Source: Nanobdellota archaeon (lineage in GTDB: Archaea > Nanobdellota > Nanobdellia > Woesearchaeales > SM23-78). Taken from it: DNA of 64,000 bases. Made by a program: the position numbers and the translations under genes. Shown in pieces: positions 20,715-53,750 of this stretch. The notes under the pieces were generated by a model. It saw only the letters and a list, made by a program, of their open reading frames with translations, had not been told where the DNA came from and searched no databases. Location of the stretch: assembly GCA_018819305.1 (NCBI GenBank), contig JAHJQO010000010.1, forward strand, positions 8,429 to 72,428, written 5' to 3'. Position 1 is the first letter of the stretch. Each line of letters begins with the position of its first letter.

Positions 20715-20741
20715 GAAATAAAATTTAGGCATCATGTTAAA

Positions 20742-21602: not shown

Positions 21603-21606
21603 ATAA

Positions 21607-23418
21607 ATGTTGAAAATGAATTTGAAAATTAATAAAAACAAAAGAGCGCAAAAAAAAGCACAAATAACTTTATTTGTAATTTTTGGTTTGATTCTTTTGA
21701 TTGTATTTATTGTTCTTTTGTTGATTAGAAAAAGTGCAGAGCCAAAGACAATGACTGGAGTTGATGAGATTTTGAATGAAATAAAAACAGGCTCTGTCAA
21801 GAATCATATTGTTAGTTGTATTTCTGAAACAGCTATGGATGCTCTTGAAAAAATAGGTGCAAATGGTGGATTGATATATAGTTTTGAAGGAGGAACAACA
21901 TTGTTTCAAGATGTTGTTGTTGGAGAAGATTATCTTAATTATACTTATCTTGATAATCCTTATTTTGTTGCTTATGGCCTGAAAAAAAATCAGCTCTGCA
22001 GCCAAATTAATTATGATGTTCCTGATTATCCTTACCTTGATAAGCTTTTGTCTTTGCTTCCAGGAATATATAGTTCCAACTGCCTTTATGATTCTTTTTA
22101 TTCTGCTTATGATGGGTTTTATGGTCAGAATGATATGAGAAAACTTTGTTATGCTGCTCGCGACTCTAGTTGCGAAGGATTTGCAAAAGGAGCTGTTATA
22201 GGATTTACGATTCAAAAGCAACTTGAAGACTTTGTATCTCGAAAAATTCCCATTTGCACAAATTTTTCAGCTTTTACAGAGAGGATGTCGGCGGAGATAA
22301 CTATTGCTGGAGATCCTAAAACTGAAGCAATAATCCATGACTCTGAAATTATTTTACTTGTTGAATATCCTGTGAAAATCACTTTTGAAAACCAAGAACC
22401 CATAACAGAAATTATTAACTATCAGGTTAATATTGATGTAAGGCTTGGAAGAATTTATAATTTTTTATACAATGTTTTTTCCCTGGATTCAAAAAAAATT
22501 GAATTTAATCTTGATGAGGAATTTATCAGTTCTTCTTTTTGGAATAATGGTTTGGAATTAAGAAGAATAAAAGATCCTTGTCCTTTATGTGATTATCCTT
22601 TTAATCATGATGACATTATAGAAGTTATTGACAGGAAATCCAAAGTAAAAGGAAGAGCTTTCTTGTTCAGGTCTGCTGTTGAGAATCGAAGACCTGCGCT
22701 TGACAAAATTGATAATTTGACAATTGACTTAGAATCATCCAGATTTATAAATATTGATTTAAGTTCTTATGACCCTGATGATACAGACATGACTTATTAC
22801 TTTTTATCCTTAGGTGTTGGCAGAGATGAATGCACTGGAACAGGGTCATTTACACCGACACCAACTCCGACACCAAGTCCATATAGTTTTGGGCAAGGCT
22901 GGTGTGAACAAGATCCTCGTATTCAATCAAGTTTGCCTTATGCTAAGTTATGGGCTCCTGTAACAAAATATGATGTTGGTGATCATGAAGTAAGAGTCCT
23001 TGCTTTGGATGACAGCGGAATGTTTGATTATCAGACATTTCAAATAAAAATATTTGATTCAAGATATACCAAGTCTCCAAGACAATCTTGTATTGGAAAT
23101 TGCACTTCTGACGGAAATAGCAATTGTGCTTCTGGCTGGTGCACTATAGCTGCTAATGAATGCAATAGTGAATGCTTAGGTGGTGAATACAGCTATGTTA
23201 GCACTTCAACATGTACAGAATGTGTTTCGCCTATTGTTTATTCAGGAAAAAGGCATGATCATGTTGACTGTTCTTCCATCTCTGATAAAAATACATGTAT
23301 TAGCAAAATGACAGATTGTTTTTGGATAAGAGAAAATATAAGCAACACATATATTGAATCATGTTATAATGATATTGCTCTTGATACAGTTAAGCTTCCT
23401 GCATATATACTCACTTAA
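21607..23418 (+). CDS. Secreted protein with type IV pilin-like (class III) signal peptide and Cys-rich C-terminus (603 aa)
   Basis: The N-terminus KNKRAQKKAQITLFVIFGLILLIVFIVLLLI has a basic region, then K-A|Q, then about 22 hydrophobic residues. A TPTPTPTPSP linker and a Cys-rich C-terminal domain follow. Confidence 0.55.
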   Translation: MLKMNLKINKNKRAQKKAQITLFVIFGLILLIVFIVLLLIRKSAEPKTMTGVDEILNEIKTGSVKNHIVSCISETAMDALEKIGANGGLIYSFEGGTTLFQDVVVGEDYLNYTYLDNPYFVAYGLKKNQLCSQINYDVPDYPYLDKLLSLLPGIYSSNCLYDSFYSAYDGFYGQNDMRKLCYAARDSSCEGFAKGAVIGFTIQKQLEDFVSRKIPICTNFSAFTERMSAEITIAGDPKTEAIIHDSEIILLVEYPVKITFENQEPITEIINYQVNIDVRLGRIYNFLYNVFSLDSKKIEFNLDEEFISSSFWNNGLELRRIKDPCPLCDYPFNHDDIIEVIDRKSKVKGRAFLFRSAVENRRPALDKIDNLTIDLESSRFINIDLSSYDPDDTDMTYYFLSLGVGRDECTGTGSFTPTPTPTPSPYSFGQGWCEQDPRIQSSLPYAKLWAPVTKYDVGDHEVRVLALDDSGMFDYQTFQIKIFDSRYTKSPRQSCIGNCTSDGNSNCASGWCTIAANECNSECLGGEYSYVSTSTCTECVSPIVYSGKRHDHVDCSSISDKNTCISKMTDCFWIRENISNTYIESCYNDIALDTVKLPAYILT

Positions 23419-23493
23419 ACTTCCTCAAAATTACTAAATAAATGATATTAACAATATTAATTGTTAAATTTACGTAAATCGATTCAAAAGAAC

Positions 23494-23505
23494 AAACTTT
23501 ATATA
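23494..23505 (+). promoter_or_regulatory. BRE/TATA promoter internal to the island
   Basis: aaaCTTTATATA about 40 nt before the start. An SD (aaaGGTGGt) precedes ATG 23546. Confidence 0.45.
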
Positions 23506-23545
23506 CTTAAAAACAGGTTTTAAAAGTGAAAAAGGTGGTTGAGTG

Positions 23546-26539
23546 ATGAATAATCAAAAATTTATCTTATTTGTAGTAATTTTTTCTCTTTTTATTCTTA
23601 TTTTGCCTGGTTTTGTTTATGCAGCAGGTTGTTGTATAGATGCATCTTTAGGTGCTTGTACAAATGTTGCCCTAGCATCAGAATGCCAAACAGAAGGCAG
23701 AACTTATGTTGATGGAGTTGCTTGCGAAACAGCATGCGCGCAAGTTTGTTGCTGTGATTTTTCAAATGCATGTGATGTGAATATTGATTATTCCTGTATT
23801 GCACCTGATACTTCCTGTGCTTATACTGGAAGCGGAGATGTAGGGGATTCATGTTCTTGCACCACGTCAAATAATTATAATGTTTCTGGAACTATAAGAA
23901 ACTCAGCAGGCGGAGTTGTAAGCGGTGCAACTGTCAGTGCTGCAGGTGCCACACCAGTTACTTCTGCTAGTGGCGGTACCTACACTCTTATTGATGCAAC
24001 TGCAAGTTCTGCTGTTATTGTTACAGCTCACAAAATATCTGTTGGATGTGTTCCTGCCACCAGAACTATTGATTTAAGTTCTTCTAACCAAGCTAATGTT
24101 GATATAACCCTGAGCTGCACTTGTGTACCTGAAACATGCAATGCTACGCTCAATGCTTATTGTAAATCAGATTCTACATGGCAGGTATACAATATTTTAA
24201 ATCCTCTTGAAAAGATAAATTATTGTAATTTCTGTAGTGTTGATGACTCTGCTGATTGCGGCAGTGTTAATGTTTGTGTTGGGGGTAATGCAGAATGTCC
24301 TTTGATTTGTTCAGCCATATCCACAGATTCTAATTATGATTCTGATTGTGTGTGCAATAGTACAGTATCAAATAATTTCTGCCCTCCAGGATGTGCATCA
24401 GATGAGTTTAGCTCTAATTTTGATATTGATTGCAATATTTATTCGCCTATTTGCGGAGATAGAATTGTCACTTACCCTTATGAAACTTGTGAAGATAATC
24501 CTTTTGACGGCCAGCTAAATCTTTGCTCTGCACACGACTGTGCAAATCCTAGTGAATTAGGAGCATGCAATTGTTTATCTCTTTCAGGATGCGGCAATGG
24601 AATTTTTGAACCAGCTTTAGGAGAACAATGTGAAATAGGAATGATTTGCACTGATGGGGTTTTGTGTGAAAACTGTGAATGCGGAACACCAACATGCACA
24701 GGAAATCTAATTAACCCTGAACTCCAGATAAGTTTTAATTCCCAGCAAAACAAAAATGATGTTTCATGGACACTTTTAACTTCTTGCATACCTAGTGTTT
24801 CTAATTATGCTGTTTACAAATGTGAAAAACAAGTGAGCAGTGATTGTAGTGATAAAGGTGTATTTTCACTTTTGGCTGGTAATATCCACGCCAGGAGTTT
24901 AACTGATTCTGCAATTACAGAATCTTCTGAATATTGTTATTTTGTTAAAGCATTTTATAGAGATGGAGCTATTGGTGAATCCAGAATTCAATGTGAGAAA
25001 ACAGGTTCTTATTATTGTATGGAATCACATCCACCAGAATTCTGCATAAACAATGCCAGAAGTGAATGTGATAATAGCAATAACATACGAGTTGTTGAAG
25101 ATTGCAAACCAGATAAATTTTGTATGGGGCCTGATTTAGATGGCGCTACACACTGTCTTGACCAGGGGCTTTGTGACATGTGCAACGGCATGTATGGCGT
25201 GTTTTCTAATTTAGATTTGAAAATCCAAGTCCAGGAAGGAGAATATTATGTTTTCAAGTATTGCAAGCCAGGTACTGGAAGAGAAGCAGTCGAAGGATGT
25301 TATATTGATAGAACAAAAACTCTTTTCAGTGCTTTTGATTATTGCGCTGAAATTGCAAGCTGCTATGATTTTAAATCAGAAGATGCTTGCGAAGACCCAA
25401 CTGATCCTTGTGATAAAAACCAGATTTGCGACTGGGAGTGGCTTGATTCAAATAGCCATGAATTAGGTGGTGTTTGCAGACCTAATGCCATTGAACTGCA
25501 AAAATGTGAACTCTGTGATGATGAAGATTACAACTGGTTGACACCAGGATGCACACCAGCAACCTGCAGCTTGTTTGGGGAGTGTTATTATCAAGGAAGA
25601 TCAAGCACAAGAATCAATGCAGAACCTTGCACAAAACAAATCACAGCCAATTGCCTTGATTATACTGACACTGCTACTTGTACAAACGGAGTGCCAGTAC
25701 ATATTAATGCAATATATAATGCAAATAATGAACGTGTTTCAGGAAGCCATGCTCTTGCTCCTGCAAGTGATGATATTCTTGGTCTTGGAAAATGTTATTG
25801 GGATTCTGTTAATAGCAGATGCCTGAGAAATGCAGATAATAATCCTGTAAGAGATTGTAGAATTGGTGATTATTATTGTGAATCAGATTTTAGAGATCCA
25901 AAAACATCTATTTTGCCTTCAAACTTTGGAGTGTATCCTGCAGATGTAAATATAAGATTTAGTGTTGCAGATAATTATCCATCAAATAAGATAATATCGC
26001 ACTTCTGTGTTTCTGATGGTGTTTGTTATCCAAGAGATTTGGCAGATAATGCCAATGGTATCTATAGCACAACCATAGACACATCTGGAGTATACAATGT
26101 TTATTATTATTCATCTGACCCTGCAAAAAATCTTGAAATTGTAAAAAACACTCAAATACTTGTTGATACGATTCCACCATCTATTAATTTAACAAGTCCT
26201 TCAGACCCAAGCAATTTCCCAACCAATCAGAATATTGTACCTGCTGTTGGTGTAACTTCAACAGATTCCAAGTTTATATGTGCTCAGAACACAAGATCAC
26301 TTCAAACTTTATGTGTGAATAATTGTTTGCTTACTGGAAATGATCCTGCTTTGCCTTGCTTTTCAAACCAGACAGGTATTTTTGAAATAGATATACATAT
26401 TGGAAATGATAATTTAACACAAGTTGTATTTTTTGCAGAAGACTTTGCAGGCAATACTTATAGAAACACTTTGCTTGGTGTTTTATTAGATATTGATCCT
26501 CCTGATGAGGCAGATATCAATGTTTACCCGGTAATTTGA
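23546..26539 (+). CDS. Secreted cysteine-rich protein with carboxypeptidase-regulatory-like beta-sandwich segment (about 997 aa)
   Basis: Sec-type signal FILFVVIFSLFILILPGFVYA|AGCC. Also YNVSGTIRNSAGGVVSGATVSAAG (CarboxypepD_reg-like) and CGNGIFEPALGEQCE-type repeats. The ORF opens at GTG 23543. Confidence 0.65.
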   Translation: MNNQKFILFVVIFSLFILILPGFVYAAGCCIDASLGACTNVALASECQTEGRTYVDGVACETACAQVCCCDFSNACDVNIDYSCIAPDTSCAYTGSGDVGDSCSCTTSNNYNVSGTIRNSAGGVVSGATVSAAGATPVTSASGGTYTLIDATASSAVIVTAHKISVGCVPATRTIDLSSSNQANVDITLSCTCVPETCNATLNAYCKSDSTWQVYNILNPLEKINYCNFCSVDDSADCGSVNVCVGGNAECPLICSAISTDSNYDSDCVCNSTVSNNFCPPGCASDEFSSNFDIDCNIYSPICGDRIVTYPYETCEDNPFDGQLNLCSAHDCANPSELGACNCLSLSGCGNGIFEPALGEQCEIGMICTDGVLCENCECGTPTCTGNLINPELQISFNSQQNKNDVSWTLLTSCIPSVSNYAVYKCEKQVSSDCSDKGVFSLLAGNIHARSLTDSAITESSEYCYFVKAFYRDGAIGESRIQCEKTGSYYCMESHPPEFCINNARSECDNSNNIRVVEDCKPDKFCMGPDLDGATHCLDQGLCDMCNGMYGVFSNLDLKIQVQEGEYYVFKYCKPGTGREAVEGCYIDRTKTLFSAFDYCAEIASCYDFKSEDACEDPTDPCDKNQICDWEWLDSNSHELGGVCRPNAIELQKCELCDDEDYNWLTPGCTPATCSLFGECYYQGRSSTRINAEPCTKQITANCLDYTDTATCTNGVPVHINAIYNANNERVSGSHALAPASDDILGLGKCYWDSVNSRCLRNADNNPVRDCRIGDYYCESDFRDPKTSILPSNFGVYPADVNIRFSVADNYPSNKIISHFCVSDGVCYPRDLADNANGIYSTTIDTSGVYNVYYYSSDPAKNLEIVKNTQILVDTIPPSINLTSPSDPSNFPTNQNIVPAVGVTSTDSKFICAQNTRSLQTLCVNNCLLTGNDPALPCFSNQTGIFEIDIHIGNDNLTQVVFFAEDFAGNTYRNTLLGVLLDIDPPDEADINVYPVI

Positions 26540-26582
26540 TTAAAAAAATTTAGCAAGAAAATTTAAAAAAGAGGGTTTATGA

Positions 26583-28865
26583 ATGAAAGCACTATTTAGA
26601 AAGATTTCAAGTGTTCGATTTGTAGTTTTAGTTTTTTTATTAATTAGTTTATTGTCTATAACTTTTTTTGTATCTGCCGTACCTTCTTTTAGGATAATAA
26701 ATAGTACTGATATTGGAATCAATGTTACTTATACAGAACGTATTTCTCCTCTTATTTTTAGATTAACAAATGCAAGTGATTTTGGTTTTGCGATTGATCA
26801 AACCCTTGGCTCTTCTCCAGGAACTTTTTTTGTTTATGAACCCAGAGGAAGTTTAAGACCAGGTCCTTATAATTTTTTTATCAAAGTTGTTGACAATGCA
26901 AATAATTTTAGAAATGATACACAAAATTTTTCCATTGTATTGCCTATTCCGCCAGGATGCGGCAACGGAGTTGTTGCAGGTAATGAAGAATGTGATGATG
27001 GAAATAATATTGATGGTGACGGATGTAGCACATATTGTAAATCAGAGGATTGTGGTAATAATAGAGTTGAGGTAGGTGAAGTATGTGATGGCACTGACTT
27101 AAATGGTAAGAACTGCGATACTATTGGTGATTTTACAGGAGGCACACTAGGATGCAAGGATAACTGTGGTTTTAACACTAGCAAATGTAATGACCCTGTT
27201 AATTATTGTGGTGATGGAGTGATTAGATCAGGAGAGCAATGTGAAGGGGGTTTGCATGGCAAAAAGTGTATTGATTTTCCTCCTTTTACAGGAGGTACTT
27301 TAAGCTGTCAGAATTGCACTTACAATACAAGCAGATGCACCGGTCCAACAGGAGGATATTGTGGGGATGGGAAAGTTGTTGTTGGTGAGCAGTGTGAAGG
27401 TGGTATTGGAAGTATAACCTGCAGAGACTTTGATGAGTTTACAAGAGGCACATTAGAGTGTGTGAGTTCTACTTGTCTTTTTGACACATCTGATTGTAAA
27501 CAGTCAGAACCTAGATGTGGGGATTTAATTTTAAACGGAGCTGAAGTATGTGATGGAAATGAATGGGGTAATATAACAGGGTGTATTGATTTTGCTGCTT
27601 TTACAGGAGGATTTCTTGATTGTCATGATACTGGTGCAAACAGATGTCATTTTGATACTAGTTATTGCACAACAGGGGGAACTGCAAATGAATCGTGTTT
27701 TAATTCAGAAAAAGATGGGGATGAAACTGATATAAATTGCGGAGGTTCCTGCCCTTGCTGTGCAGCACCAAAAAAATGCTTGGTAAATCAGGATTGTTGT
27801 TTAAATAACTGCAAGAATAATATTTGTGTCGCACCTAACTGTGATGATAAAGAAAAAAATGGTTTAGAATCAGATAAGGATTGCGGTGGTGATTGTCCTG
27901 CATGTAATATCAGCCAGAGCTGTAATCAAGACAGGGATTGTGTAACTGATTTTTGCCATCCTATAGCGAAAAAATGTGCAATTCCTACTTGCGCTGACGG
28001 TTATCTAAATGGTGATGAATCAGGTGTTGATTGTGGTGGCAGCTGCCCTGATAAATGTGGGCAGGATCAAAATTGTATATCTGATAATGATTGCAGAGAA
28101 GGCCTTATCTGCGAATACGGTAAATGTAATGCAGATAGAACTCAGGATACTGATGGTGATGGAATGCCAGACTGGTGGGAAAACACAAATGGATTAAATC
28201 CTAATGATGCAAATGATGCAGATTTGGATAAGGATGGTGATGGTTATACTAATTTAGAGGAATATCTAAATGGTACAGATCCTAATGATCCAAATGATCC
28301 TGCTCCTGAGAAAAAACATACACTTCAAATCATTCTGTTGATTTTGGGCTTGTTACTCATGCTTGGCAGTATAGGTTTCTTGATTTACTATAGGAAAGTT
28401 ATTTTGCCACAGCAGCAAGCAGCAGCAAGAGCTCGAACACCAACTCAACAACAAGGAGCTCAGAGACCTGAAACATCTGGTGGCGCTCAAGTACAGGCCC
28501 GAGGTAATGTGAGAAGACCATTACCAGGAAGACCTGGTGTTGGAGGTGTAAGGAGATCTTTGTTAAAAGGATTTGATAAAACAAAGCTTGGCGCTCAAAA
28601 ATCAACCTCTGTCGCAGGAAAAAAGACTGATTCTAGTTCTCCAAAACAAACTTCAGAGTATGTGCCTTTATCGCAGTTAGGAAAGAAAAAAGTTCAAGAG
28701 TCAGATGTTAAAAAAACTGTAAAAAAGCCTTCGAGTGACACATTTGATAAATTAAAAGACTTGTCAAGCAAAGATAAATCTGCTGGAAAGAGCACAAAGG
28801 ATGCTTTGAAAGAGCTATCTGATTCATATAAGAAAAAAACAGATAAAAAGAAACAGGATAAGTGA
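26583..28865 (+). CDS. Type I membrane protein with modular Cys-rich repeats, TSP3-like Ca-binding repeats, a TM helix and a basic disordered tail
   Basis: Signal peptide and one CGNGVVAGNEECDDGNNIDGDGCSTYC module. Then four CGDGxVxxGExC...FTGGTLxC...TSxC modules of about 50 aa, three C-x-D-x-x-NGDE(S/T)-x-(V/I/K)-(D/N)-CGGxCP modules, DTDGDGMPDWWE...DKDGDGYTNLEEY, the TM helix IILLILGLLLMLGSIGFLIYY, and a 155-aa K/Q/R-rich tail. Confidence 0.7.
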   Translation: MKALFRKISSVRFVVLVFLLISLLSITFFVSAVPSFRIINSTDIGINVTYTERISPLIFRLTNASDFGFAIDQTLGSSPGTFFVYEPRGSLRPGPYNFFIKVVDNANNFRNDTQNFSIVLPIPPGCGNGVVAGNEECDDGNNIDGDGCSTYCKSEDCGNNRVEVGEVCDGTDLNGKNCDTIGDFTGGTLGCKDNCGFNTSKCNDPVNYCGDGVIRSGEQCEGGLHGKKCIDFPPFTGGTLSCQNCTYNTSRCTGPTGGYCGDGKVVVGEQCEGGIGSITCRDFDEFTRGTLECVSSTCLFDTSDCKQSEPRCGDLILNGAEVCDGNEWGNITGCIDFAAFTGGFLDCHDTGANRCHFDTSYCTTGGTANESCFNSEKDGDETDINCGGSCPCCAAPKKCLVNQDCCLNNCKNNICVAPNCDDKEKNGLESDKDCGGDCPACNISQSCNQDRDCVTDFCHPIAKKCAIPTCADGYLNGDESGVDCGGSCPDKCGQDQNCISDNDCREGLICEYGKCNADRTQDTDGDGMPDWWENTNGLNPNDANDADLDKDGDGYTNLEEYLNGTDPNDPNDPAPEKKHTLQIILLILGLLLMLGSIGFLIYYRKVILPQQQAAARARTPTQQQGAQRPETSGGAQVQARGNVRRPLPGRPGVGGVRRSLLKGFDKTKLGAQKSTSVAGKKTDSSSPKQTSEYVPLSQLGKKKVQESDVKKTVKKPSSDTFDKLKDLSSKDKSAGKSTKDALKELSDSYKKKTDKKKQDK

Positions 28866-28887
28866 GGAGGCTAAGTGAGGTGAGTTT

Positions 28888-29403
28888 TTGAAATCTAATG
28901 CAAAAGCACAAATTAGCCAGGTTTTCACTTATATTATTATTATTTTAGTGGTTGGCCTGATTGTAGTATTTGGTGTGAGAGGCATCATAAAGATTATGAA
29001 TGCGAATTGTGAGCATCAAGATGTATTATTTAATAAAACATTAATGAGTTTTATTGACGAGTATTCTGATAGAGGTATGGTTCAGGAGGAATCTATTAAA
29101 GCACCCTGTGATGCAGAAGAGATTTGTTTTGCTGATTCTGAGTATTGTCCAAGAGCAAGTTCAACATTAACTTTAGATGCTATCCCTGCGAGTGAGAACC
29201 TTATAAGAGATGCTGTAGGTTCTTGCACTGCAAATGTTTTTGTTAAAGGTAAATTCACAATACCGATTGGTTTTTCAAAAAAAATAAGCGTTAACAAAGG
29301 GATTCCTGCCGATTCTTTTCAGTGTATTAGTGTCAAAGGCGGCAGTGTCAAACTTGTTTTCAGTGGCCTTGGAAGACAGACACAGATTGAATCAGGCTGG
29401 TAG
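28888..29403 (+). CDS. Type IV pilin-like protein (class III signal peptide), 171 aa
   Basis: TTG start 4 nt after GAGGTGAG. N-terminus MKSNAKA|QISQVFTYIIIILVVGLIVVFGV. Confidence 0.5.
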   Translation: MKSNAKAQISQVFTYIIIILVVGLIVVFGVRGIIKIMNANCEHQDVLFNKTLMSFIDEYSDRGMVQEESIKAPCDAEEICFADSEYCPRASSTLTLDAIPASENLIRDAVGSCTANVFVKGKFTIPIGFSKKISVNKGIPADSFQCISVKGGSVKLVFSGLGRQTQIESGW

Positions 29404-29443
29404 AATAATTTAACAAACTAATTTTCAAAGATGTTAAGGTGTT

Positions 29444-30508
29444 ATGATGTTAAAGATATCCTTATTAAATAAAAGAGGTTTTGCTATTCAGTTTAATTGG
29501 CTCTTTGTTCTTATTGGCGGTGTTGTTATTCTGAGTTTTTTTGTTAGTCTTATAAATAACAGTACTTTTGGAAATGACCAGGAAACAGACCAGAAATCAA
29601 CAGAAGAAGTAAATGCTTTGTTAAAAGTCAGCTTAGCATCTGGCAACACCCAGAAAACAATGTCTTTTGACAAGAAAATAATGTTTTATTGTGATGATAC
29701 TTCAGAATTTTTTGTTGGTGCTGCCTTTAAGCCAGCCAGATATGATTATAATGCAATTTTTTCTCCTAAAGTACTTGACAGCTCAGAATTAATCATACAA
29801 ACTCTAGCTTTGAATATTCCTTTCAGAGCCATGCCTTTGGTTTATGTCACTAATAAAGATATTGAATATGTTTTTGTAGGCAATGCTCCTCTGATTAATT
29901 TGGTTTTTAACCAGATGCCAGATAATGTGACAATGAAATCAATTCCTGCAGGAAGCATTGCATATTATCCTAACTTTGATTTTGACCACACAGTCTTTAT
30001 TCTTAGTGATACTTCTCACTTGGCTGCTCTCAGTAATTTTGCAGGTACAAAAGATGTTGTATATGCTGTTGTTCTTGAGCCTGGCAGTGCAAATGTGTAC
30101 TCTTATGGTAATATTTCTTTTTATCGTTATGATACGCCTTCTTCAAGTTTTGTTCTTGACGGCACTCTTCCCTTTTTAGGTTCAGAATTGCTGTTGGGAG
30201 GAGTTATAAGTCATGACAAGACAATTTATGAATGTAATCTGAAAAAAGTAATTACTCGTATTTCAACTCTAAGTAAACTTCATGAAGAAAGAATGGTTTA
30301 CTATGGTGATAATGCTGAATCTCACTGCCAGATGTATTATGCTGGCAGTGCCACTAGCGCAATAAATTATTTAGAAGACCTTAAAATTTTTGCTGAAAAA
30401 AATGAACTTTCAGTGGTAAACTTTCAAAGTATTTATTCAGCTATCAGCAGCTTAAGATCATTGAATAATTTTATTATTACAAAAACAGAATGCCCGAGAA
30501 TTTATTGA
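29444..30508 (+). CDS. Type IV pilin-like protein (class III signal peptide), 354 aa
   Basis: N-terminus LLNKRG|FAIQFNWLFVLIGGVVILSFFVSL. Confidence 0.45.
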   Translation: MMLKISLLNKRGFAIQFNWLFVLIGGVVILSFFVSLINNSTFGNDQETDQKSTEEVNALLKVSLASGNTQKTMSFDKKIMFYCDDTSEFFVGAAFKPARYDYNAIFSPKVLDSSELIIQTLALNIPFRAMPLVYVTNKDIEYVFVGNAPLINLVFNQMPDNVTMKSIPAGSIAYYPNFDFDHTVFILSDTSHLAALSNFAGTKDVVYAVVLEPGSANVYSYGNISFYRYDTPSSSFVLDGTLPFLGSELLLGGVISHDKTIYECNLKKVITRISTLSKLHEERMVYYGDNAESHCQMYYAGSATSAINYLEDLKIFAEKNELSVVNFQSIYSAISSLRSLNNFIITKTECPRIY

Positions 30509-30548
30509 ATTGGTCAATTAATTGAATTTATTAATATAAACATCAAAA

Positions 30549-31052
30549 ATGAAAAGAAAAGCCCAAATGCAAATGACAGAAAGCATTTTTGTAGTTTTCA
30601 TGGTTCTAATTATTATTGTGATTGGTTTTGTTGTCTATTCTAAATTTCAGGAGACAAGCATAAAAGAAAAACAGAAACTTTTGAGATCAATGCAGTTGAT
30701 TGAAATGGGGCATCGGCTTAGCTCATGGCCAGAGCTGGAATGCTCTGTGGCAGGTGTTACTGAATTTGTATGCCTTGACACTGTGAAACTTATGGTTTTG
30801 GGTGACATTATTAACAAAACCAAAGGAACAAAATTATATGAATATTATTTCGACCTTTTGAAAAACTCAAAAATTACTGTGACTGAAATTTATCCTTCAA
30901 ACACTTTGACAAAAGGAAAAGATTATTGGGTGTTATATGAGAATCCAGGGATGACAAAAACTATAGACCCTATTACTGTTCCTGTAAATCTTTACAATCC
31001 ATTGACAAAGCAATATGCTTTTGGAGTTTTGGAGTTGTTGATATATGAATAA
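30549..31052 (+). CDS. Type IV pilin-like protein (class III signal peptide), 167 aa
   Basis: N-terminus MKRKA|QMQMTESIFVVFMVLIIIVIGFVVY. Confidence 0.5.
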   Translation: MKRKAQMQMTESIFVVFMVLIIIVIGFVVYSKFQETSIKEKQKLLRSMQLIEMGHRLSSWPELECSVAGVTEFVCLDTVKLMVLGDIINKTKGTKLYEYYFDLLKNSKITVTEIYPSNTLTKGKDYWVLYENPGMTKTIDPITVPVNLYNPLTKQYAFGVLELLIYE

Positions 31053-31548
31053 TAGAACAATAAAAAGAAAAATCAATAGAAAAGCGCAGTTAGAAATGAT
31101 TGGATTAATTGTAATTGTTATCATTGTGGTGGTAGCTCTGCTGATATTTACTGTTTACCAGGTAACGAATCCTCAGCGAAACATTAAGAGAAAATACATG
31201 AATGAAGAAATAGCCACGAATATGCTTGTTAGCATGATGAATATAGACCTGCGTGAGTGTCATAATCTTTCTTTGCAAGAACTTGTTGGTGACTGTGCCA
31301 AAACTTTTCATTCAATAACTTGTCTTGATAGTACGAGCTGTGAAATTGCAAATAAAACAATTTATGATATTTTGAACAGAACTCTGATTGATTGGGATGT
31401 CAGCTTTAATTTATCTGTGCAGAATACAGACATATCTTTTGTAAATCTTGGTTGTACTGCCAGAGTAAAGAGTAAAATCAGAGGATTTCAAATATTACCT
31501 CTTTATCCTGGGCAGATAGAAATGATATTGGATGTCTGCACTATATAA
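31045..31548 (+). CDS. Type IV pilin-like protein (class III signal peptide), 167 aa
   Basis: N-terminus KINRKA|QLEMIGLIVIVIIVVVALLIF. Overlaps the previous gene by 8 nt. Confidence 0.5.
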   Translation: MNNRTIKRKINRKAQLEMIGLIVIVIIVVVALLIFTVYQVTNPQRNIKRKYMNEEIATNMLVSMMNIDLRECHNLSLQELVGDCAKTFHSITCLDSTSCEIANKTIYDILNRTLIDWDVSFNLSVQNTDISFVNLGCTARVKSKIRGFQILPLYPGQIEMILDVCTI

Positions 31549-32937: not shown

Positions 32938-33924
32938 ATGGAGAGGGCGCCTATAATTAAGATTCAGCATGCTGATAAGAGTTTTGGTAAAAATCATGTT
33001 CTTAAAAACATATCTTTGGATGTAAATGAAGGTGAAATCTTTGGATTAATAGGTGCCAGTGGCAGCGGGAAGACAACTCTTTTGAAAATACTGATTGGTT
33101 TTCTCTCTCCTGAACAAGGAGATGTGAAATTCAGATATGATTATTTTGTTAAATCCAAAAATAAGTCACAGAAACCATTATATGCTTCTGTTTACAAACA
33201 GCAAAAACTTGCGAGAAATCTCTTTGGGTTTGCCAGTCAGGAACCGTCTTTTTACAAGAAGCTCACTGTAAAGGAAAATATGGAATATTTTGGCTCTCTT
33301 TATAATCTTCCTAAGCAGGCATTGCAGTCTAATATTAATATTCTCATTGCTTTAATGGATTTAAAACATGCTGAAAATACTTTGGCAGGTGATTTATCAG
33401 GAGGAATGGAAAGAAGACTTGACATTGCCTGTGCGCTTGTGCACGACCCTGAGGTTTTGATACTTGACGAGCCAACATCAGACCTTGACCCTCTTTTAAG
33501 AGATCATATCTGGAGCCTTGTAAAGAAGATTAACAAAAAAGGAACAACAATTATTCTTGCAAGCCATCATTTGTCTGAAGTTGAAACTTTTTGCTCCAGG
33601 ATAGCCATTATAAAAAACGGCAAAATTATTGATGTTGCCAGCCCTGCAAGATTAAAAACTAAATATGCTGATTCTCAGGAAATAAGAATTCAGACATATC
33701 CTGGAAGCTATGCTAACATTGCAAAAGTAATTAAAAAACCAGGAAATAAAGTGTTTGATGTCAAGATAAAAGGCTCAGAGCTTATTATATATTCTGATCG
33801 GCCGCAGATAGTTCTTCATGAACTTTTGCATACTTTGGAAACTTTAAAAGAAGAATTAATTGATATTCAGGTGTTCAGGCCGGGTCTGGATGAGTTATTC
33901 CTGAAAATTACAGGCAAGAAATAG
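32938..33924 (+). CDS. ABC transporter ATP-binding protein
   Basis: Walker A GASGSGKTT, signature LSGGMERR, Walker B LILDEPTSDLD, and H-loop SHH. Confidence 0.9.
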   Translation: MERAPIIKIQHADKSFGKNHVLKNISLDVNEGEIFGLIGASGSGKTTLLKILIGFLSPEQGDVKFRYDYFVKSKNKSQKPLYASVYKQQKLARNLFGFASQEPSFYKKLTVKENMEYFGSLYNLPKQALQSNINILIALMDLKHAENTLAGDLSGGMERRLDIACALVHDPEVLILDEPTSDLDPLLRDHIWSLVKKINKKGTTIILASHHLSEVETFCSRIAIIKNGKIIDVASPARLKTKYADSQEIRIQTYPGSYANIAKVIKKPGNKVFDVKIKGSELIIYSDRPQIVLHELLHTLETLKEELIDIQVFRPGLDELFLKITGKK

Positions 33925-33970
33925 GCAAGATATAGACAGATATTGAATAAAATATTGAACAGGATTAAAA

Positions 33971-35974
33971 ATGAAATTATGGAGTATTATTAAAAAAAAC
34001 TTTAAGCTTTTAATAAGATTTAAGGCTTCTGCTTTTATAGTTCTTCTTGGACCTTTGCTTATTATTCTTCTGGTAGGACTTGCTTTTAGCGGCAAATCAT
34101 CCTATGATTTGAGCGTTGGTTATTATTCACCTGAACATACTAATCTCACTAATGAGTTTGTCGAATCCCTTCGTGCGGGTAACTATCTTTTGCATGAGTT
34201 TAATAATGAAGAAGATTGTGTGAAAAAAATTGAACAAGGAATAATACACACATGCATAATATTCCCTGTGGGATTTGAAGTTGGCAATGAACAAAGTAAT
34301 GAATTAAGATTTTTAGTTGATTATTCAAGGATGAATCTTGTTTACGAGGTAATTGATTCGGTTTCTGGTATTCTTCAGGCAGAGACTCAGGAGCTTAGTT
34401 ATTCTCTGACTCAGATTCTGCTTTCTCGAATTAACACTACAATTATGGATTTAGATAAGCAGCTTTTATCTATTGAAGATATTAATCCTCAGTTAAATCT
34501 CTTGACAATGAATATTCAAAAAGCAAAATCAAATACAGATGCCATGAAACTTGAGATGAAAGAAGTCAGTCTGAGCAGCCTGGAAAGTAAGGCTAAAAAC
34601 ATTAACAAGACGATTGAGGACATCAAAGCAAAGAGCCTTGAAGTAATAAATAAATCACAAGAATTTTTAGATATATTGGCTGATGATTATGATCATTGGG
34701 ATAATGAAACAGAAGCCATAAGAGAAGAATTTAACAATCTTCTTAATGAAACCTTTAATTTGTATAATGCAACACCTGATGAAGTTCAAGAACTTCTTGA
34801 TGCTATTGATGGTATTTCTAATTCTCTTTCAGATTTTGCATCTGACCTTGAAAAAAGTGCTGAACTTAATAAAGATACACAAGCTAAATTAGAATCTTCT
34901 AAGCAGGGTATCGCTGCGATTCAGAGCAAGATTCTTGAATTAAAAGATGCATTACAAAAAACAAAAAATAACTTAACAAATATTGGAGTAACAAGCGCAG
35001 AAACCATAGTAAGCCCCGTTAACACAAAAATCGAACCTGTTGCTTCAGAAACATCAAAACTCACATTCACTTTTCCATTCTTGTTAGTATTGGTAATAAT
35101 GTTTGTTGCATTGCTTTTATCAAGCACACTTGTTTTGTTTGAAAAAAATTCAAAAGCATTCTTCAGAAACTTTATTACTCCGACAAGACCTGCATTTTTT
35201 GCAGTCACAACTTTTTTGACCAGTTTTATTGTGATAATAATTCAAACAATAATTATTATTGCTTTGGCTAATTTTTTCCTGAAAATACCATTATTTAAGA
35301 ATTTCATTCCTACTTTATTGATTGTTTTGGTGACATGTATATTTTTTATTGTTCTGGGCATGGCGATAGGCTACTTATTTTCAACACAAGAAGGAGCCAT
35401 AATGGTTTCAATTGTGCTAGGCTCTATTTTCTTGTTCCTGTCTAATCTGGTTATTCCTTTGGAAAGCATGGCTCCTGCTCTTTCAGGAATAATAAAATAT
35501 AATCCTTATGTGCTGGCTTCAGATGTTTTGAGAAAATCTTTTTTATTTACATTAAGAACTTCAGAAGCTTTAACAGCCATACTAATTCTTTTAGGAGCTG
35601 CAGTGATTATGTTTGTTCTCATACTTGTTCTCAGGGGGTTTGCACATAATAAAAGGATTAAGCAGTCACCAGATCTTCTGGAAAAAAAGCTCCTTGAAGA
35701 ACCTCCTAAAATAAATCCCAAATCCCAACTTCAAGTTGGATCGCAAAGAGTTACTAATAAGCTTGAATTATTAAGACTGCTTTCCTACCTTACAAAGGCT
35801 GAGTTTGAAGATATTGTGAATAAACAAGATAATAAAATCGCAGACTGGGCTGAGAATGAGCTTAAAGACATAAAATTAGCCTCAAAATTACGTAAACACG
35901 TTTCAAAAGAAGAATTAATGAAAATACTGGCAGATGAGATAAAAAAAGAAAAATCCATGAAAAAACCGGATTGA
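33971..35974 (+). CDS. ABC-2 type permease with large coiled-coil ectodomain (YhgE/Pip-like) and C-terminal cytosolic extension
   Basis: One N-terminal TM helix, a helical ectodomain of about 330 aa, five or six C-terminal TM helices, then a roughly 110-aa soluble tail. Confidence 0.65.
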   Translation: MKLWSIIKKNFKLLIRFKASAFIVLLGPLLIILLVGLAFSGKSSYDLSVGYYSPEHTNLTNEFVESLRAGNYLLHEFNNEEDCVKKIEQGIIHTCIIFPVGFEVGNEQSNELRFLVDYSRMNLVYEVIDSVSGILQAETQELSYSLTQILLSRINTTIMDLDKQLLSIEDINPQLNLLTMNIQKAKSNTDAMKLEMKEVSLSSLESKAKNINKTIEDIKAKSLEVINKSQEFLDILADDYDHWDNETEAIREEFNNLLNETFNLYNATPDEVQELLDAIDGISNSLSDFASDLEKSAELNKDTQAKLESSKQGIAAIQSKILELKDALQKTKNNLTNIGVTSAETIVSPVNTKIEPVASETSKLTFTFPFLLVLVIMFVALLLSSTLVLFEKNSKAFFRNFITPTRPAFFAVTTFLTSFIVIIIQTIIIIALANFFLKIPLFKNFIPTLLIVLVTCIFFIVLGMAIGYLFSTQEGAIMVSIVLGSIFLFLSNLVIPLESMAPALSGIIKYNPYVLASDVLRKSFLFTLRTSEALTAILILLGAAVIMFVLILVLRGFAHNKRIKQSPDLLEKKLLEEPPKINPKSQLQVGSQRVTNKLELLRLLSYLTKAEFEDIVNKQDNKIADWAENELKDIKLASKLRKHVSKEELMKILADEIKKEKSMKKPD

Positions 35975-36076
35975 TCCTGCCTGAGCTGGATTTTGCTTTG
36001 TTCTTTAGGTAAACTTTTTAAATAAAAGCTTTTAATACCATATAATTAACACGATTTATAAAACTTTAACAAGGAG

Positions 36077-37867
36077 GTGTATTTCTTGACAAAAACAAAA
36101 AAACATAAGGTAAAAGAGAGTCACAAAATACAACACAAAGCAAAGCATTCTGAACATAAGGAAAAAGTTCCTGGTAATTTTTTCCCAATAATATCAGCAG
36201 CAGTTCTGATAATTATTTTAGTTCTGGTTATTGTTAAGTTATTTGGGTCTTCTGCAAGTCCTGTGATTTCTCAGGAAGATAAGGCAAAAGTTGAATTTTA
36301 TGTTATGAGCCAGTGCCCATATGGAACACAAGTAGAAGATGCATTTTATCCTGTGCTTCAGCAAATGGGAGATGCAATTGACTTTCACTTAGATTATATT
36401 GTTCAGGAGCCCTCGCCGGGTCAGTTTCAGTCCTTGCATGGAGAGCCAGAAGTCATTGGAAACATTGTTCAGCTCTGTGCAATGAAATATTATCCTGAAA
36501 ATTATAAATACATGGATTTTATTGATTGCCAGAACAAAGATGCAGCAAATGTCCATACAAACTGGGTGACTTGTGCTAATCAGAATCAAATGGATGTTAC
36601 TAAGCTAAGAACTTGTCTTGAAGGTGACGAAGGCAAGGGCTTGTTAAGGGAGTCTATGCTAAGAGCTCAGGCAAGAGAGGCCAGAGGCAGTCCAACTATA
36701 TTTATTGATGATGCGCCTTATCAAGGCCAGAGAGATGCTTTGAGTTTTCAGAGGGCAGTATGTAAGGTAGTAGAGCATGATGCTTGTGACGCAATACCTG
36801 TTTGTGCTTCAGGAGCTGATTGTACTGAACAAGCAGGAAAAATTGGAGTGTGCAACAATGCAGGCCAGGCAGATGCATCTTGCACTTATGAAGATCCGGT
36901 AGAGCTTAATTATTATGTGCTTAACAGTGCTGACTGTACAGGCCAAGCATGTGATGCTTCAAGAATACTTCAGGTAACACAGCAGTTATTCTTAGGTGGA
37001 AAACCAAAAGTTGTTGATGTTGACAGCCCTGAAGGAAAGCAACTAGTTGAAAAATATGGCATTGAAGTGGTGCCTGCATTTATCTTTGAAAGCAACATTG
37101 AAAACACAAAGAGCTGGAAAGAAAGAACAGATTTGCAATCAGCTTTTGATAAAATAGGAGATAGTTATAAGCTTAAAGATGAAGCTACAGGAGCAACTTT
37201 TTATATAAGTGAAGAGGCCAGGCAAGCAAAATATGATGCCATAGGAATTACTTTAGGTGATAACAGGCCTCAGATTGACTTCTTTGTAATGAGCTACTGT
37301 CCTTATGGAAATCAGGCTGAAGAAGGCATTGAGCCAGCATATCAGTTGTTAAAAGATGTTGCTGACTTTAATCCAAGATATGTTATTTACAGCAATTATG
37401 GTGGAGGCGGGCCTAATTTCTGCATTGATGCTGAAAGCCAGATTTGTTCTATGCATGGAATTGTTGAGCTGAACCAGAATATTAGAGAAGCTTGTGTTGC
37501 AAAGCACATAGGTATGGATGAATGGTTTGAGTTCGCACTTAAGATGAACACAGATGCAACTTCTCAGAATGCAGATGATAAATGGGAAAGTGCTGCTAAG
37601 GGTCTTGGCTTAGATATTGATGTTATCAATAAATGCTTTGATGAAGAAGGAGAAGCACTCATGGCTGCTGACAAAGCACTTGGTGATTTAATGGGTGTGA
37701 GTGGAAGCCCAAGTGTGTTTGTTGATGGAGACAGCTATAGTGGAGGCAGAACACCAGAAGCATTTAAGCAAGGCTTGTGTGCTGCATTTGACACTGCTCC
37801 TTCAGAGTGCAATACTAAACTTGAAGGTGAAGCATCAGCATCATCAGCACCGCAAGGTAATTGTTAA
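36077..37867 (+). CDS. Membrane-anchored extracytoplasmic thioredoxin-fold protein with two CPYG-motif domains (DsbA/GILT-like)
   Basis: N-terminal TM helix, then two similar modules KVEFYVMSQCPYGTQVE and QIDFFVMSYCPYGNQAE. The likely true start is TTG 36086, 6 nt after GGAGGTG. Family assignment is tentative. Confidence 0.4.
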   Translation: MYFLTKTKKHKVKESHKIQHKAKHSEHKEKVPGNFFPIISAAVLIIILVLVIVKLFGSSASPVISQEDKAKVEFYVMSQCPYGTQVEDAFYPVLQQMGDAIDFHLDYIVQEPSPGQFQSLHGEPEVIGNIVQLCAMKYYPENYKYMDFIDCQNKDAANVHTNWVTCANQNQMDVTKLRTCLEGDEGKGLLRESMLRAQAREARGSPTIFIDDAPYQGQRDALSFQRAVCKVVEHDACDAIPVCASGADCTEQAGKIGVCNNAGQADASCTYEDPVELNYYVLNSADCTGQACDASRILQVTQQLFLGGKPKVVDVDSPEGKQLVEKYGIEVVPAFIFESNIENTKSWKERTDLQSAFDKIGDSYKLKDEATGATFYISEEARQAKYDAIGITLGDNRPQIDFFVMSYCPYGNQAEEGIEPAYQLLKDVADFNPRYVIYSNYGGGGPNFCIDAESQICSMHGIVELNQNIREACVAKHIGMDEWFEFALKMNTDATSQNADDKWESAAKGLGLDIDVINKCFDEEGEALMAADKALGDLMGVSGSPSVFVDGDSYSGGRTPEAFKQGLCAAFDTAPSECNTKLEGEASASSAPQGNC

Positions 37868-39350: not shown

Positions 39351-39394
39351 TTTTTTTCCTTTTTTTTTAGTTCTTTTGAGGCTGCTGTACAGAT

Positions 39395-53749: not shown

Positions 53750-53750
53750 T

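What the first reader, a model, noticed from the sequence alone, without database searches (positions are those of the whole stretch)
28888..31548. Four consecutive small genes, plus 21607, share a [K/R]-A|Q or R-G|F class III signal peptide
Read directly from the N-termini: AKA-QISQVFTYIIIILVVG, KRG-FAIQFNWLFVLIGGVVIL, RKA-QMQMTESIFVVFMVLIII, RKA-QLEMIGLIVIVIIVVV, and KKA-QITLFVIFGLILLIVF in the 603-aa protein. Each is a basic stretch, then a small residue, then Gln or Phe, then about 20 hydrophobic residues. This is the layout of archaeal prepilins processed by PibD/EppA-type peptidases; the Gln at +1 recalls the euryarchaeal DUF361-type pilins. Four of the five use Ala rather than the usual Gly at -1. 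Two of the genes are exactly 167 codons long and overlap by 8 nt, which suggests a tandem duplicate pair of minor pilins.
Basis: partly seen in the sequence, partly recalled or inferred. Interest (0 to 1): 0.62.

Follow-up and report, generated by a model that had tools for sequence, protein, structure and literature searches.

The report
Pilin-like surface gene array in Woesearchaeota
Five genes of a groundwater Woesearchaeota archaeon really do begin with a prepilin-type signal (basic leader, small residue, Gln/Phe, hydrophobic helix), and they form the core of a surface-protein gene array conserved across this poorly known symbiont lineage, but no processing peptidase or assembly motor could be found with the tools at hand.

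Summary
Of 143 six-frame ORFs in the window, only the five named ones fit a FlaFind-type rule. The window is a Ca. Woesearchaeota MAG contig from groundwater.

The four small genes (here E171, F354, G167, H167) are four separate, single-copy families. They keep the same order in about 75-85 related loci; F354 relatives occur in 111 GTDB species genomes. Across species the leader varies from 3 to 59 aa. Position -2 is always K/R, -1 is A/S/G, and +1 is Gln in 95-100% of E, G, H and the 603-aa family. Glu is fixed at +6 in G and at +3 in H.

E, G and H resemble each other only over their N-terminal ~40 residues. The two 167-aa genes are therefore not a recent tandem duplicate.

AlphaFold models show a long N-terminal helix followed by a globular domain with no PDB match. 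No known pilin HMM matches. No A24 peptidase, T2SSE ATPase or TadC-like platform lies in the 91.7-kb contig or near about 90 related loci.

Best reading: new class III signal peptide (type IV pilin-like) families, probably minor-pilin-like subunits of a host-attachment structure. Cleavage and assembly remain unshown.

The parts
28888..29403 (+). E171: 171-aa pilin-like protein. Leader MKSNAKA, predicted cleavage before Q8 (nt 28909). Single N-terminal hydrophobic helix and 6 Cys.
   Evidence: The family occurs in 78 loci, always just upstream of F354. +1 is Q in 95% and -2 is K/R in 100%. An SD-like motif precedes the TTG start. The N-terminus is homologous to those of G and H by hhalign.
29444..30508 (+). 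F354: 354-aa pilin-like protein. Leader MMLKISLLNKRG, predicted cleavage before F13 (nt 29480). It is the largest and most conserved member of the quartet.
   Evidence: G12, Q16, F17 and W19 are invariant in 38 homologues. Relatives occur in 111 GTDB species genomes. AF2 pLDDT 90.3: helix 13-60, then a beta domain, then a C-terminal helical bundle. No PDB fold match. Its N-terminus is not similar to that of E171.
30549..31052 (+). G167: 167-aa pilin-like protein. Leader MKRKA, predicted cleavage before Q6 (nt 30564). Glu at +6.
   Evidence: The family occurs in 73 loci. Q+1 is 98% and E+6 is 100% conserved. hhalign against H gives 95% probability, restricted to the N-terminal 38 residues.
31045..31548 (+). 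H167: 167-aa pilin-like protein. Leader MNNRTIKRKINRKA, predicted cleavage before Q15 (nt 31087). Mature N-terminus QLEMIGL, with 6 conserved Cys.
   Evidence: Alignment A2 shows a variable leader followed by an invariant AQLEMIGL. Q+1 95%, E+3 95%, G+6 95%. 1501 clusters at 50% identity match at E<=1e-3 in 1.84 billion proteins, and a sample of them keeps [KR][SAGT]Q.E..GL. AF2 pLDDT 84.8.
21607..23418 (+). B603: 603-aa protein with the same type of N-terminus (leader ends ...QKKA, predicted cleavage before Q19, nt 21661). Large ectodomain with 22 Cys.
   Evidence: The family occurs in 39 loci. Q+1 100%, T+3 97%, and -1 is mostly Ser. Iterated HMMs of the G and H families cross-hit it.
16125..20714 (+). 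A1529: giant secreted protein (98 Cys, Sec-type N-terminal signal) at the head of the same-strand array. Adhesin-like cargo or partner (inferred).
   Evidence: (no Pfam hit). Synteny is conserved in close relatives.
20742..21602 (+). Memo-like protein inside the array. Present only in the window's own clade (11 loci). Role unknown.
   Evidence: PF01875, E=7e-62. Synteny.
23543..26539 (+). C998: 998-aa secreted protein with 82 Cys. Sec-type signal followed by a conserved A-GCC.
   Evidence: The family occurs in 21 loci.
26583..28865 (+). D760: 760-aa protein with 54 Cys, a Sec-type signal, DUF4215 and TSP3 repeats, a C-terminal TM anchor (residues 578-596) and a Lys-rich tail. It is a member of the giant-protein family that precedes E171 in 67 loci.
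32938..37867 (+). ABC ATPase, an ABC-2 permease with a long extracytoplasmic coiled-coil region, and a GILT/DsbA-like thiol-disulfide oxidoreductase. These neighbours are conserved only in the window's clade. A role in disulfide formation for the Cys-rich proteins is inferred; membership in the system is uncertain.
   Evidence: the ABC ATPase, ABC permease and GILT-like families occur in 17, 16 and 14 loci.

Best explanation
The five proteins are new families of archaeal class III signal peptide (type IV pilin-like) proteins.

Inferred mechanism:
- Each protein is inserted N-in, C-out.
- A prepilin-type (A24, PibD/EppA-like) peptidase encoded elsewhere in the genome cuts between the small residue (A/S/G) and Gln/Phe.
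- The retained hydrophobic N-terminal helix, with its conserved Gln+1 and a conserved Glu at +3 or +6, then serves as the assembly interface.

E171, F354, G167 and H167 are a fixed single-copy quartet with unrelated globular heads. By analogy they act as minor-pilin-like or pseudopilin-like subunits that nucleate or cap a short fibre or surface stalk. That structure would display the adjacent giant disulfide-rich proteins (A1529, C998, D760, and the pilin-like B603).

In other Woesearchaeales the same array continues with several ~90-aa major-pilin-like genes and ends in peptidoglycan hydrolases that carry the same N-terminus. This points to attachment to, and local breaching of, bacterial host cell walls.

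Shown here: the motif, its conservation, N-terminus-only homology, synteny, predicted topology and helices. Inferred: cleavage, polymerisation, the tip-complex role and the host-attachment function.
For: 1. Only these 5 of 143 ORFs fit the FlaFind-type rule. [KR][GAS]Q+TM is found in 39% of array genes against 1% of opposite-strand genes.
2. Leader length varies from 3 to 59 aa, while -2 is K/R in 100%, -1 is A/S/G, and +1 is Q in 95-100% of four unrelated families over about 65-80 species. G has E+6 in 100%; H has E+3 and G+6 in 95%. An independent sample of the H family shows the same pattern.
3. hhalign links G-H (95%, E=3e-8), E-H (90%) and E-G (92%) only over the first 38-58 residues. The rest of each protein is unrelated, which is the classic pilin pattern.
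4. In the AF2 models the helix starts at the predicted +1 residue of F354 and runs 48 residues (13-60) before a beta domain (pLDDT 90). H167 has helix 4-41 followed by an alpha/beta domain (pLDDT 85).
5. Cys counts are even (2, 4, 6, 6, 22) and the Cys of H167 are conserved, indicating exported, disulfide-bonded domains.
6. The nine genes lie on one strand with gaps of -8 to 124 nt. The order giant protein-E-F-G-H is kept in about 75-85 loci.
7. In L092-L097 and L018 the array extends to 15-20 genes, nearly all starting [KR][KR][GAS] plus one TM. It includes 1-5 copies of an ~80-100-aa family (KKAQGISINTIIIAAIAL...) and ends with SLT, M23, NlpC/P60, CHAP or VanY hydrolases. One example begins MRRG|QISYFPVVL.
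8. Literature: archaeal T4P loci typically hold >=5 FlaFind-positive minor pilins, Cys-rich components, adhesin-like giants and a C-terminally anchored S-layer-like protein, and pilin genes are often separate from the ATPase (PMC4858521).
Against: - No A24 peptidase, T2SSE/FlaI-type ATPase or TadC/FlaJ-type platform gene was found in the 64-kb window, in the whole 91.7-kb contig, or within +-10 kb of the array in about 90 loci.
- One preprint states that T4P components are missing in DPANN genomes (10.1101/2020.05.14.094862). Makarova et al. report two nanoarchaea without an A24 peptidase.
- There is no match to PF04021, Pilin_N, N_methyl or NCBIfam pilin models. The DUF7288 hit is sub-threshold and seen in only 6 of 60 family members.
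- Foldseek finds no pilin or pseudopilin fold. H167's first helix ends at residue 41, which is short for a classical alpha1.
- The looser motif KK[GAS]+TM also occurs in 10 of 35 N-terminally hydrophobic control proteins.
- There are no expression or proteomic data.
Confidence: 0.55

Rival explanations
1. Uncleaved N-terminal signal-anchor (type II, N-in/C-out) membrane proteins. The conserved KK-[A/S/G]-Q...E segment would be a juxtamembrane/TM interaction motif that holds a multi-subunit envelope complex together in the membrane. No prepilin peptidase and no filament would be involved.
For: No peptidase, ATPase or platform gene was found anywhere in about 2 Mb of related loci. The literature claims that DPANN lack T4P parts. 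No known pilin HMM or fold matches. The arrays of 15-20 genes contain no recognisable energy source.
Against: A plain anchor does not need a small residue followed by an invariant Gln exactly at the basic/hydrophobic boundary. It also does not need a conserved acidic residue in the first 6 hydrophobic positions, yet both are kept in several unrelated families while the leader length drifts from 3 to 59 aa. In L092 the site is the canonical [KR]G|Q.
Confidence: 0.27
2. True class III signal peptides that are cleaved, but with no pilus formed. The proteins would make a bindosome-like, membrane-proximal assembly that only tethers enzymes and adhesins (peptidoglycan hydrolases, Cys-rich giants) at the cell surface.
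For: Enzymes (SLT/M23, NlpC/P60, VanY) carry the same N-terminus. This parallels Sulfolobus sugar-binding proteins processed by PibD (background in PMC4858521). The window's own clade has no ~90-aa major-pilin-like gene within 10 kb of the array.
Against: Most other lineages encode 1-5 tandem copies of a small ~80-100-aa family with a very conserved hydrophobic N-terminus right after H. This is typical of major pilins.
Confidence: 0.2
3. Ordinary Sec signal peptides removed by signal peptidase I, or a chance or compositional pattern in a Lys-rich, AT-rich genome.
For: The loose pattern KK[GAS]+TM is fairly common in control proteins that have N-terminal hydrophobic stretches (10 of 35).
Against: The hydrophobic segment is 20-25 residues long, is not followed by an AxA-type site, and continues as a helix into the folded domain. 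The true Sec-type proteins of the same array (A1529, C998, D760) look different. The strict motif is 5/143 in the window, all in one array, and is 39% against 1% in the controls.
Confidence: 0.04

Closest known systems
Euryarchaeal EppA-processed pilins (Methanococcus maripaludis Epd proteins; Pfam PF04021 Class_IIIsignal/DUF361)
   Same: A short basic leader, a small residue at -1, Gln at +1 and then about 20 hydrophobic residues. Several small minor-pilin-like proteins with unrelated heads are encoded side by side, and there is a tiny (~70-90 aa) major-pilin-like family (PMC4858521).
   Different: No PF04021 hit for any of 150 N-termini tested. Position -1 is mostly Ala/Ser rather than Gly. 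The acidic residue sits at +3 or +6. No EppA, ATPase or TadC gene lies in or near the array. The globular domains match no Pfam family above its curated cut-off and, for the two modelled (F354, H167), no PDB fold.
Bacterial minor-pilin/pseudopilin sets with a tip adhesin (FimU-PilVWX-PilY1; GspH-I-J-K)
   Same: Four consecutive pilin-like genes, one markedly larger than the others, in fixed order and single copy, beside very large adhesin-like proteins. The resemblance is one of gene organisation only; the bacterial side is recalled from general knowledge, not tested.
   Different: Archaeal lineage. No N_methyl motif. No sequence or Foldseek similarity to GspK/PilX-type structures. No adjacent secretin or ATPase genes.
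Archaeal T4P locus architectures catalogued by Makarova, Koonin and Albers 2016
   Same: FlaFind-positive minor pilins, multiple conserved cysteines, a large secreted adhesin candidate and a C-terminally anchored S-layer-like protein. Pilin sets are sometimes encoded apart from the ATPase/TadC genes.
   Different: None of the ten described variants comes from Woesearchaeales. That study could not identify the pilins cognate to the one secretion ATPase clade it found in nanoarchaea (it notes other pilins in their genomes). Here the array carries peptidoglycan hydrolases with the same signal and never includes the ATPase.
'Module 98' lineage-specific protein families of Pacearchaeota/Woesearchaeota (Castelle et al. 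2021, PMC8204110)
   Same: A set of 51 co-occurring, mostly unannotated families restricted to these lineages. It includes large murein-type lytic transglycosylase proteins proposed to act on bacterial host walls.
   Different: The passages of that paper retrieved here do not describe prepilin-type N-termini or the E-F-G-H gene order. Whether these families belong to Module 98 was not checked.

Membership tests
Archaeal class III signal peptide / type IV pilin-like proteins (FlaFind definition) | N-terminal [KRDE][GA][ALIFQMVED][ILMVTAS] followed directly by a hydrophobic transmembrane stretch | tested here: met
   All five proteins match, and no other ORF of the 143 in the window does.
Archaeal class III signal peptide / type IV pilin-like proteins (FlaFind definition) | The cleavage-site region is conserved while the charged leader varies in length and sequence | tested here: met
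   Leaders of 3-59 aa. -2 K/R 100%, -1 A/S/G, +1 Q 95-100% in the E, G, H and B families.
Archaeal class III signal peptide / type IV pilin-like proteins (FlaFind definition) | A cognate A24 prepilin peptidase (PibD/FlaK/EppA) is present in the genome and cleaves the protein | not testable with these tools
   None was found in the 91.7-kb contig or among polytopic proteins near the related loci screened. Whole genomes could not be scanned, and cleavage needs an experiment.
Archaeal class III signal peptide / type IV pilin-like proteins (FlaFind definition) | An assembly ATPase (T2SSE/FlaI/PilB family) and a TadC/FlaJ platform are encoded with the pilins or elsewhere in the genome | tested here: inconclusive
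   Absent from every neighbourhood examined (Walker-A and TM screens; Pfam). Genome-wide presence is unknown, and the literature is contradictory.
Archaeal class III signal peptide / type IV pilin-like proteins (FlaFind definition) | A long N-terminal alpha-helix followed by a globular, mostly beta head (pilin 'lollipop') | tested here: inconclusive
   F354 has helix 13-60 plus a beta domain. H167 has helix 4-41 and then an alpha/beta domain. Foldseek against PDB returns no pilin.
Pfam PF04021 Class_IIIsignal (DUF361), PF07790 Pilin_N, PF07963 N_methyl; NCBIfam archaeal pilin/flagellin N-terminal models | A significant HMM match to the N-terminal domain | tested here: not met
   None of these models is listed at E<=1 for the five window proteins (Pfam, NCBIfam). 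None appears among the 25 most-matched families for the 150 family N-termini scanned at E<=1.
EppA-type substrates | Gln at +1 | tested here: met
   Q+1 in four of the five window proteins, and 95-100% across their families. F354 has Phe, or Gln in part of its family.
Pfam PF23959 DUF7288 | Score above the gathering threshold (27 bits) | tested here: not met
   18.7 bits, E=0.0024 for H167. Only 6 of 60 family members give any hit at E<=0.1.
Bacterial minor pilin / pseudopilin tip complex (GspHIJK, FimU-PilVWX) | Structural or sequence similarity of the subunits to GspH/I/J/K-type folds | tested here: not met
   Best Foldseek hits have E>=0.009 and TM<=0.34, and none is a pilin. Only the gene organisation is similar.
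   BLASTP E=5.4. The profile-profile match covers only the N-terminal 38 residues. Each genome has one member of each family.

The most novel reading that the evidence does not exclude
The E-F-G-H quartet would be the conserved core of a previously undescribed Woesearchaeales/Nanoarchaeia-wide surface machine, encoded by an array of 10-25 genes. The array consists of pilin-like subunits, ~90-aa fibre subunits, giant disulfide-rich adhesins, and peptidoglycan hydrolases that carry prepilin-type signals. The machine would attach these ultra-small archaea to bacterial hosts and open the host's cell wall. It may be assembled by machinery that is not a canonical, locus-linked T4P ATPase/platform.
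Probability: 0.35. Interest if true: 0.8.

Novelty: new variant of a known kind. Interest (0 to 1): 0.62.

Why it matters
Woesearchaeota are abundant and uncultured, and they are presumed to be episymbionts. How they hold on to hosts is unknown.

Published surveys did not describe this array. One could not identify the pilins cognate to the secretion ATPase clade it found in nanoarchaea (PMC4858521). Another stated that DPANN lack type IV pilus parts (10.1101/2020.05.14.094862). A third noted only lineage-specific hypothetical families and large murein transglycosylases (PMC8204110).

This array gives concrete, testable candidates. It contains four single-copy pilin-like families; one of them alone has about 1500 clusters at 50% identity in public data. 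These are physically linked to giant adhesin-like proteins and, in sister lineages, to murein hydrolases that carry the same signal. If the signal is cleaved and the proteins assemble, this is the attachment and penetration apparatus of a major DPANN lineage, and it would indicate bacterial hosts. It would also supply new HMMs to correct 'hypothetical protein' annotations and the truncated gene starts seen in public calls.

Tried and rejected
- Pfam and NCBIfam scans of the five proteins, of 150 family N-termini and of 60 H-family members gave only sub-threshold single-TM noise. The DUF7288 lead was rejected.
- Foldseek against PDB for F354 and H167 gave nothing significant.
- A PDB sequence search with the ~90-aa family profile gave only non-significant hits: an archaeal 'flagellin-like protein' at E=1.6 and a PilA at E=2.9.
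- I looked for a peptidase, ATPase or platform in several ways: Pfam on all window genes; both flanks of the 91.7-kb contig; Walker-A, GxGD and multi-TM screens of about 1500 proteins from 88 loci; Pfam on the nine polytopic candidates; and six extra loci reached through the ~90-aa family. None was found.
- The neighbouring ABC-2 transporter was considered as a possible assembly engine. It is present only in the window's clade (17 loci), so it is not a core part.
- RNA evidence: no RNA runs hold the gene, and only groundwater DNA metagenomes do.
- The bacterial promoter/terminator scan is uninformative for an archaeon.
- My first enrichment test used a faulty definition of 'outside the array' and gave a weak odds ratio. 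I replaced it with the opposite-strand control.
- Literature searches for Woesearchaeota plus pili or prepilin peptidase found no description of this array.
Full report
**Where the window comes from.** The window carries Cdc6/Orc1, PolD small and large subunits, MCM, TBP, aIF2-beta and an RNase P subunit. It is therefore archaeal. The 354-aa protein is encoded identically on NCBI GCA_018820305.1 and on a 91.7-kb ENA contig. Its NCBI-named homologues are labelled Candidatus Woesearchaeota archaeon. Sequencing runs that hold the stretch are groundwater metagenomes. GC content is about 34%, and no tRNA or Rfam RNA is present.

**The observation.** A FlaFind-like rule applied to every six-frame ORF of >=60 aa returns exactly these five of 143. 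They lie in one same-strand run of nine genes (16125-31548) with gaps of -8 to 124 nt. The other members are three very Cys-rich proteins with ordinary Sec-type signals (A1529 with 98 Cys, C998 with 82, D760 with 54 plus a C-terminal TM anchor) and a Memo-like protein. Every pilin-like protein has one N-terminal hydrophobic segment and an even number of Cys. Public gene calls truncate two of the proteins and so remove the motif. Homologue conservation and an SD-like GGAGG/GGTGA motif before the TTG start of E171 favour the long forms.

**Comparative anatomy.**
- The 354-aa protein has 39 close homologues with an almost invariant N-terminus, NKRG-FALQFNWLFVLIGG.
- A pattern scan of GTDB species genomes found 111 genomes with a relative. 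The 80 loci fetched are Woesearchaeota or Nanoarchaeia MAGs, a few with evidently wrong taxonomic labels.
- My own ORF calling and BLASTP clustering of 88 loci defined separate single-copy families: F354 (86 loci), E171 (78), G167 (73), H167 (73), the D760-type giant (67), B603 (39) and C998 (21).
- The order giant protein-E-F-G-H is kept throughout.
- Memo, YjbQ, the ABC transporter and the GILT/DsbA-like oxidoreductase are neighbours only in the window's own clade.
- The H167 family alone has 1501 clusters at 50% identity at E<=1e-3 among 1.84 billion proteins. The 150 listed are mostly 150-185 aa long.

**The N-terminal signal.** Across species the leader before the motif varies from 3 to 59 residues. 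Position -2 is K/R in 100% of members, -1 is A/S/G, and +1 is Gln in 95% (E), 98% (G), 95% (H) and 100% (B). G has Glu at +6 in 100%. H has Glu at +3 and Gly at +6 in 95%. Thirty-six independently called H-family representatives read [KR][S/A/G/T]-Q-x-E-x-x-G-L after leaders of 2-35 residues. In a higher-GC relative (L092) the site is the canonical [KR]-G|Q. As a control, [KR][GAS]Q+TM occurs in 294 of 746 same-strand genes within 7 kb of F354, against 2 of 208 opposite-strand genes.

**Homology between the families.** Profile-profile comparison links G-H (95% probability, E=2.7e-8), E-H (90%) and E-G (92%), but only over the first 38-58 residues. F354 has a different N-terminus. The two 167-aa proteins are otherwise unrelated (BLASTP E=5.4). 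The tandem-duplicate idea fails except as a very ancient event.

**Structure.** AlphaFold2 with family alignments gives confident models.
- F354 (pLDDT 90.3, pTM 0.84) has a 48-residue helix that starts exactly at the predicted +1 Phe. It is followed by a beta-rich domain and a C-terminal helical bundle.
- H167 (pLDDT 84.8) has helix 4-41 and then an alpha/beta domain with six conserved Cys.

Foldseek against the PDB gives no significant match for either model. The heads are therefore new folds or very divergent, and membership of a known pilin fold is not shown.

**What is missing.** No Pfam or NCBIfam pilin model matches, and the weak DUF7288 hit does not hold up. No A24 peptidase, T2SSE ATPase or TadC-like platform is encoded in any of these places:
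- the window;
- the rest of the 91.7-kb contig;
- within 10 kb of the array in about 90 loci.

The literature is divided. Makarova et al. found secretion ATPases in nanoarchaea but could not identify their cognate pilins, and reported two nanoarchaea without the peptidase (PMC4858521). He et al. state that T4P parts are missing in DPANN. Vazquez-Campos et al. report type IV pili genes in several non-Woesearchaeota DPANN lineages, including Micrarchaeota, Diapherotrites and Nanoarchaeum equitans (PMC8561730).

**The wider array.** In more distant Woesearchaeales the array continues after H. There are 1-5 copies of an ~80-100-aa family (MMxKKAQGISINTIIIAAIALxVLVVL..., four conserved Cys; 160 database hits). 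About ten further unknown genes follow, nearly all beginning [KR][KR][GAS] plus a single TM. The array ends with peptidoglycan hydrolases: SLT+M23, SLT, NlpC/P60 (+CHAP/SLT) or VanY/M15. All six loci reached through the small family showed this architecture.

Archaea lack murein, so these enzymes point to bacterial partners. Castelle et al. proposed this for large transglycosylases of Pace- and Woesearchaeota, and described 51 co-occurring lineage-specific families, 'Module 98' (PMC8204110). The window's own clade has no small-subunit or hydrolase gene within 10 kb of the array.

**Interpretation.** The most economical reading is that these are genuine class III signal peptide proteins, that is, type IV pilin-like proteins of new families. 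The invariant Gln at +1 is like that of euryarchaeal EppA substrates. The fixed quartet with unrelated heads, next to giant adhesin-like proteins, resembles minor-pilin sets in organisation. I therefore propose a priming or tip complex, or a short pseudopilus-like stalk, that presents the Cys-rich giants. A neighbouring GILT/DsbA-like oxidoreductase may supply disulfides.

Cleavage, polymerisation and the energy source are all inferred. The main rival is an uncleaved signal-anchor complex, which the absence of any linked machinery keeps alive. I place about 0.55 on the pilin-like model (some of that on a non-filament, bindosome-like variant), about 0.27 on the anchor model, and very little on Sec signals or chance.

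**Novelty and verdict.** The signal type is known. The families, the conserved quartet, the array architecture (never linked to an ATPase, with murein hydrolases bearing the same signal) and the lineage appear undescribed in the searchable literature. I class it as a new variant of a known kind, with interest 0.62.

Noticed in passing
L092 13558-15849; L093 14299-15552; L094 19665-20288; L095 19950-20285; L097 16141-17181; L018 19190-20344: In sister Woesearchaeales the same array ends in peptidoglycan hydrolases (SLT+M23, SLT, NlpC/P60 +/- CHAP/SLT, VanY/M15). At least some begin with the same [KR][KR][GA]|Q + TM signal. This suggests bacterial hosts.
   Followed up: partly
L018 13301-13609 and 78 other genes in 44 loci (e.g. 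L093 10001-11433, five tandem copies): An ~80-100-aa family (MMxKKAQGISINTIIIAAIALxVLVVL, four conserved Cys) lies directly after the H167 homologue. It is a candidate major fibre subunit. No copy was found within 10 kb in the window's own clade.
   Followed up: partly
window 50541-52571 (-): A TPP-binding pyruvate:ferredoxin oxidoreductase beta-like subunit is interrupted by an intein with a LAGLIDADG homing endonuclease domain. It sits inside a por operon (52571-54664).
   Followed up: no
window 37959-40732 (-): Two radical-SAM/BATS (HydE/HydG/BioB-like) genes. One carries an N-terminal HupF/HypC domain fusion. They lie next to a HycI-like protease gene and a NiFe hydrogenase operon.
   Followed up: no
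window 43748-44503 (+): A SAM-dependent methyltransferase gene is inserted between the hydrogenase small-subunit (42966-43751) and large-subunit (44513-45796) genes and overlaps the former by 4 nt.
   Followed up: no
window 23543-26539 and the D760 family: In the C998 and D760 families the Sec-type signal peptide is followed directly by a conserved Ala-Gly-Cys-Cys. The meaning of this motif is unknown.
   Followed up: no
window 28888 and 30549 (gene starts): Public annotations disagree. ENA starts E171 20 codons late (151 aa) and NCBI starts G167 8 codons late (159 aa). Both short calls delete the signal motif that homologues conserve.
   Followed up: yes
L026 (DATILO010000105.1), L033 (JAFCCF010000001.1) and many 'uncultured Methanosarcinales archaeon' records: Contigs that carry this Woesearchaeota-type array are filed under Binatia, Aminicenantes or Methanosarcinales MAGs. 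These are probably mis-binned or mislabelled.
   Followed up: no
L088 11019-18664 (about 1-9 kb beyond the window's 3' end, same contig): A DUF58-MoxR-DUF7502-(171 aa)-VWA-BatA/VWA cluster. Makarova et al. list vWA/MoxR modules as possible T4P modulators, but this one lies more than 30 kb from the pilin-like genes.
   Followed up: no
window 33971-35974 (+): The ABC-2 permease has a roughly 300-residue coiled-coil-like extracytoplasmic insert between TM1 and the remaining TMs (YhgE/Pip-like layout, recalled from general knowledge). It is conserved next to the array only in the window's clade.
   Followed up: no
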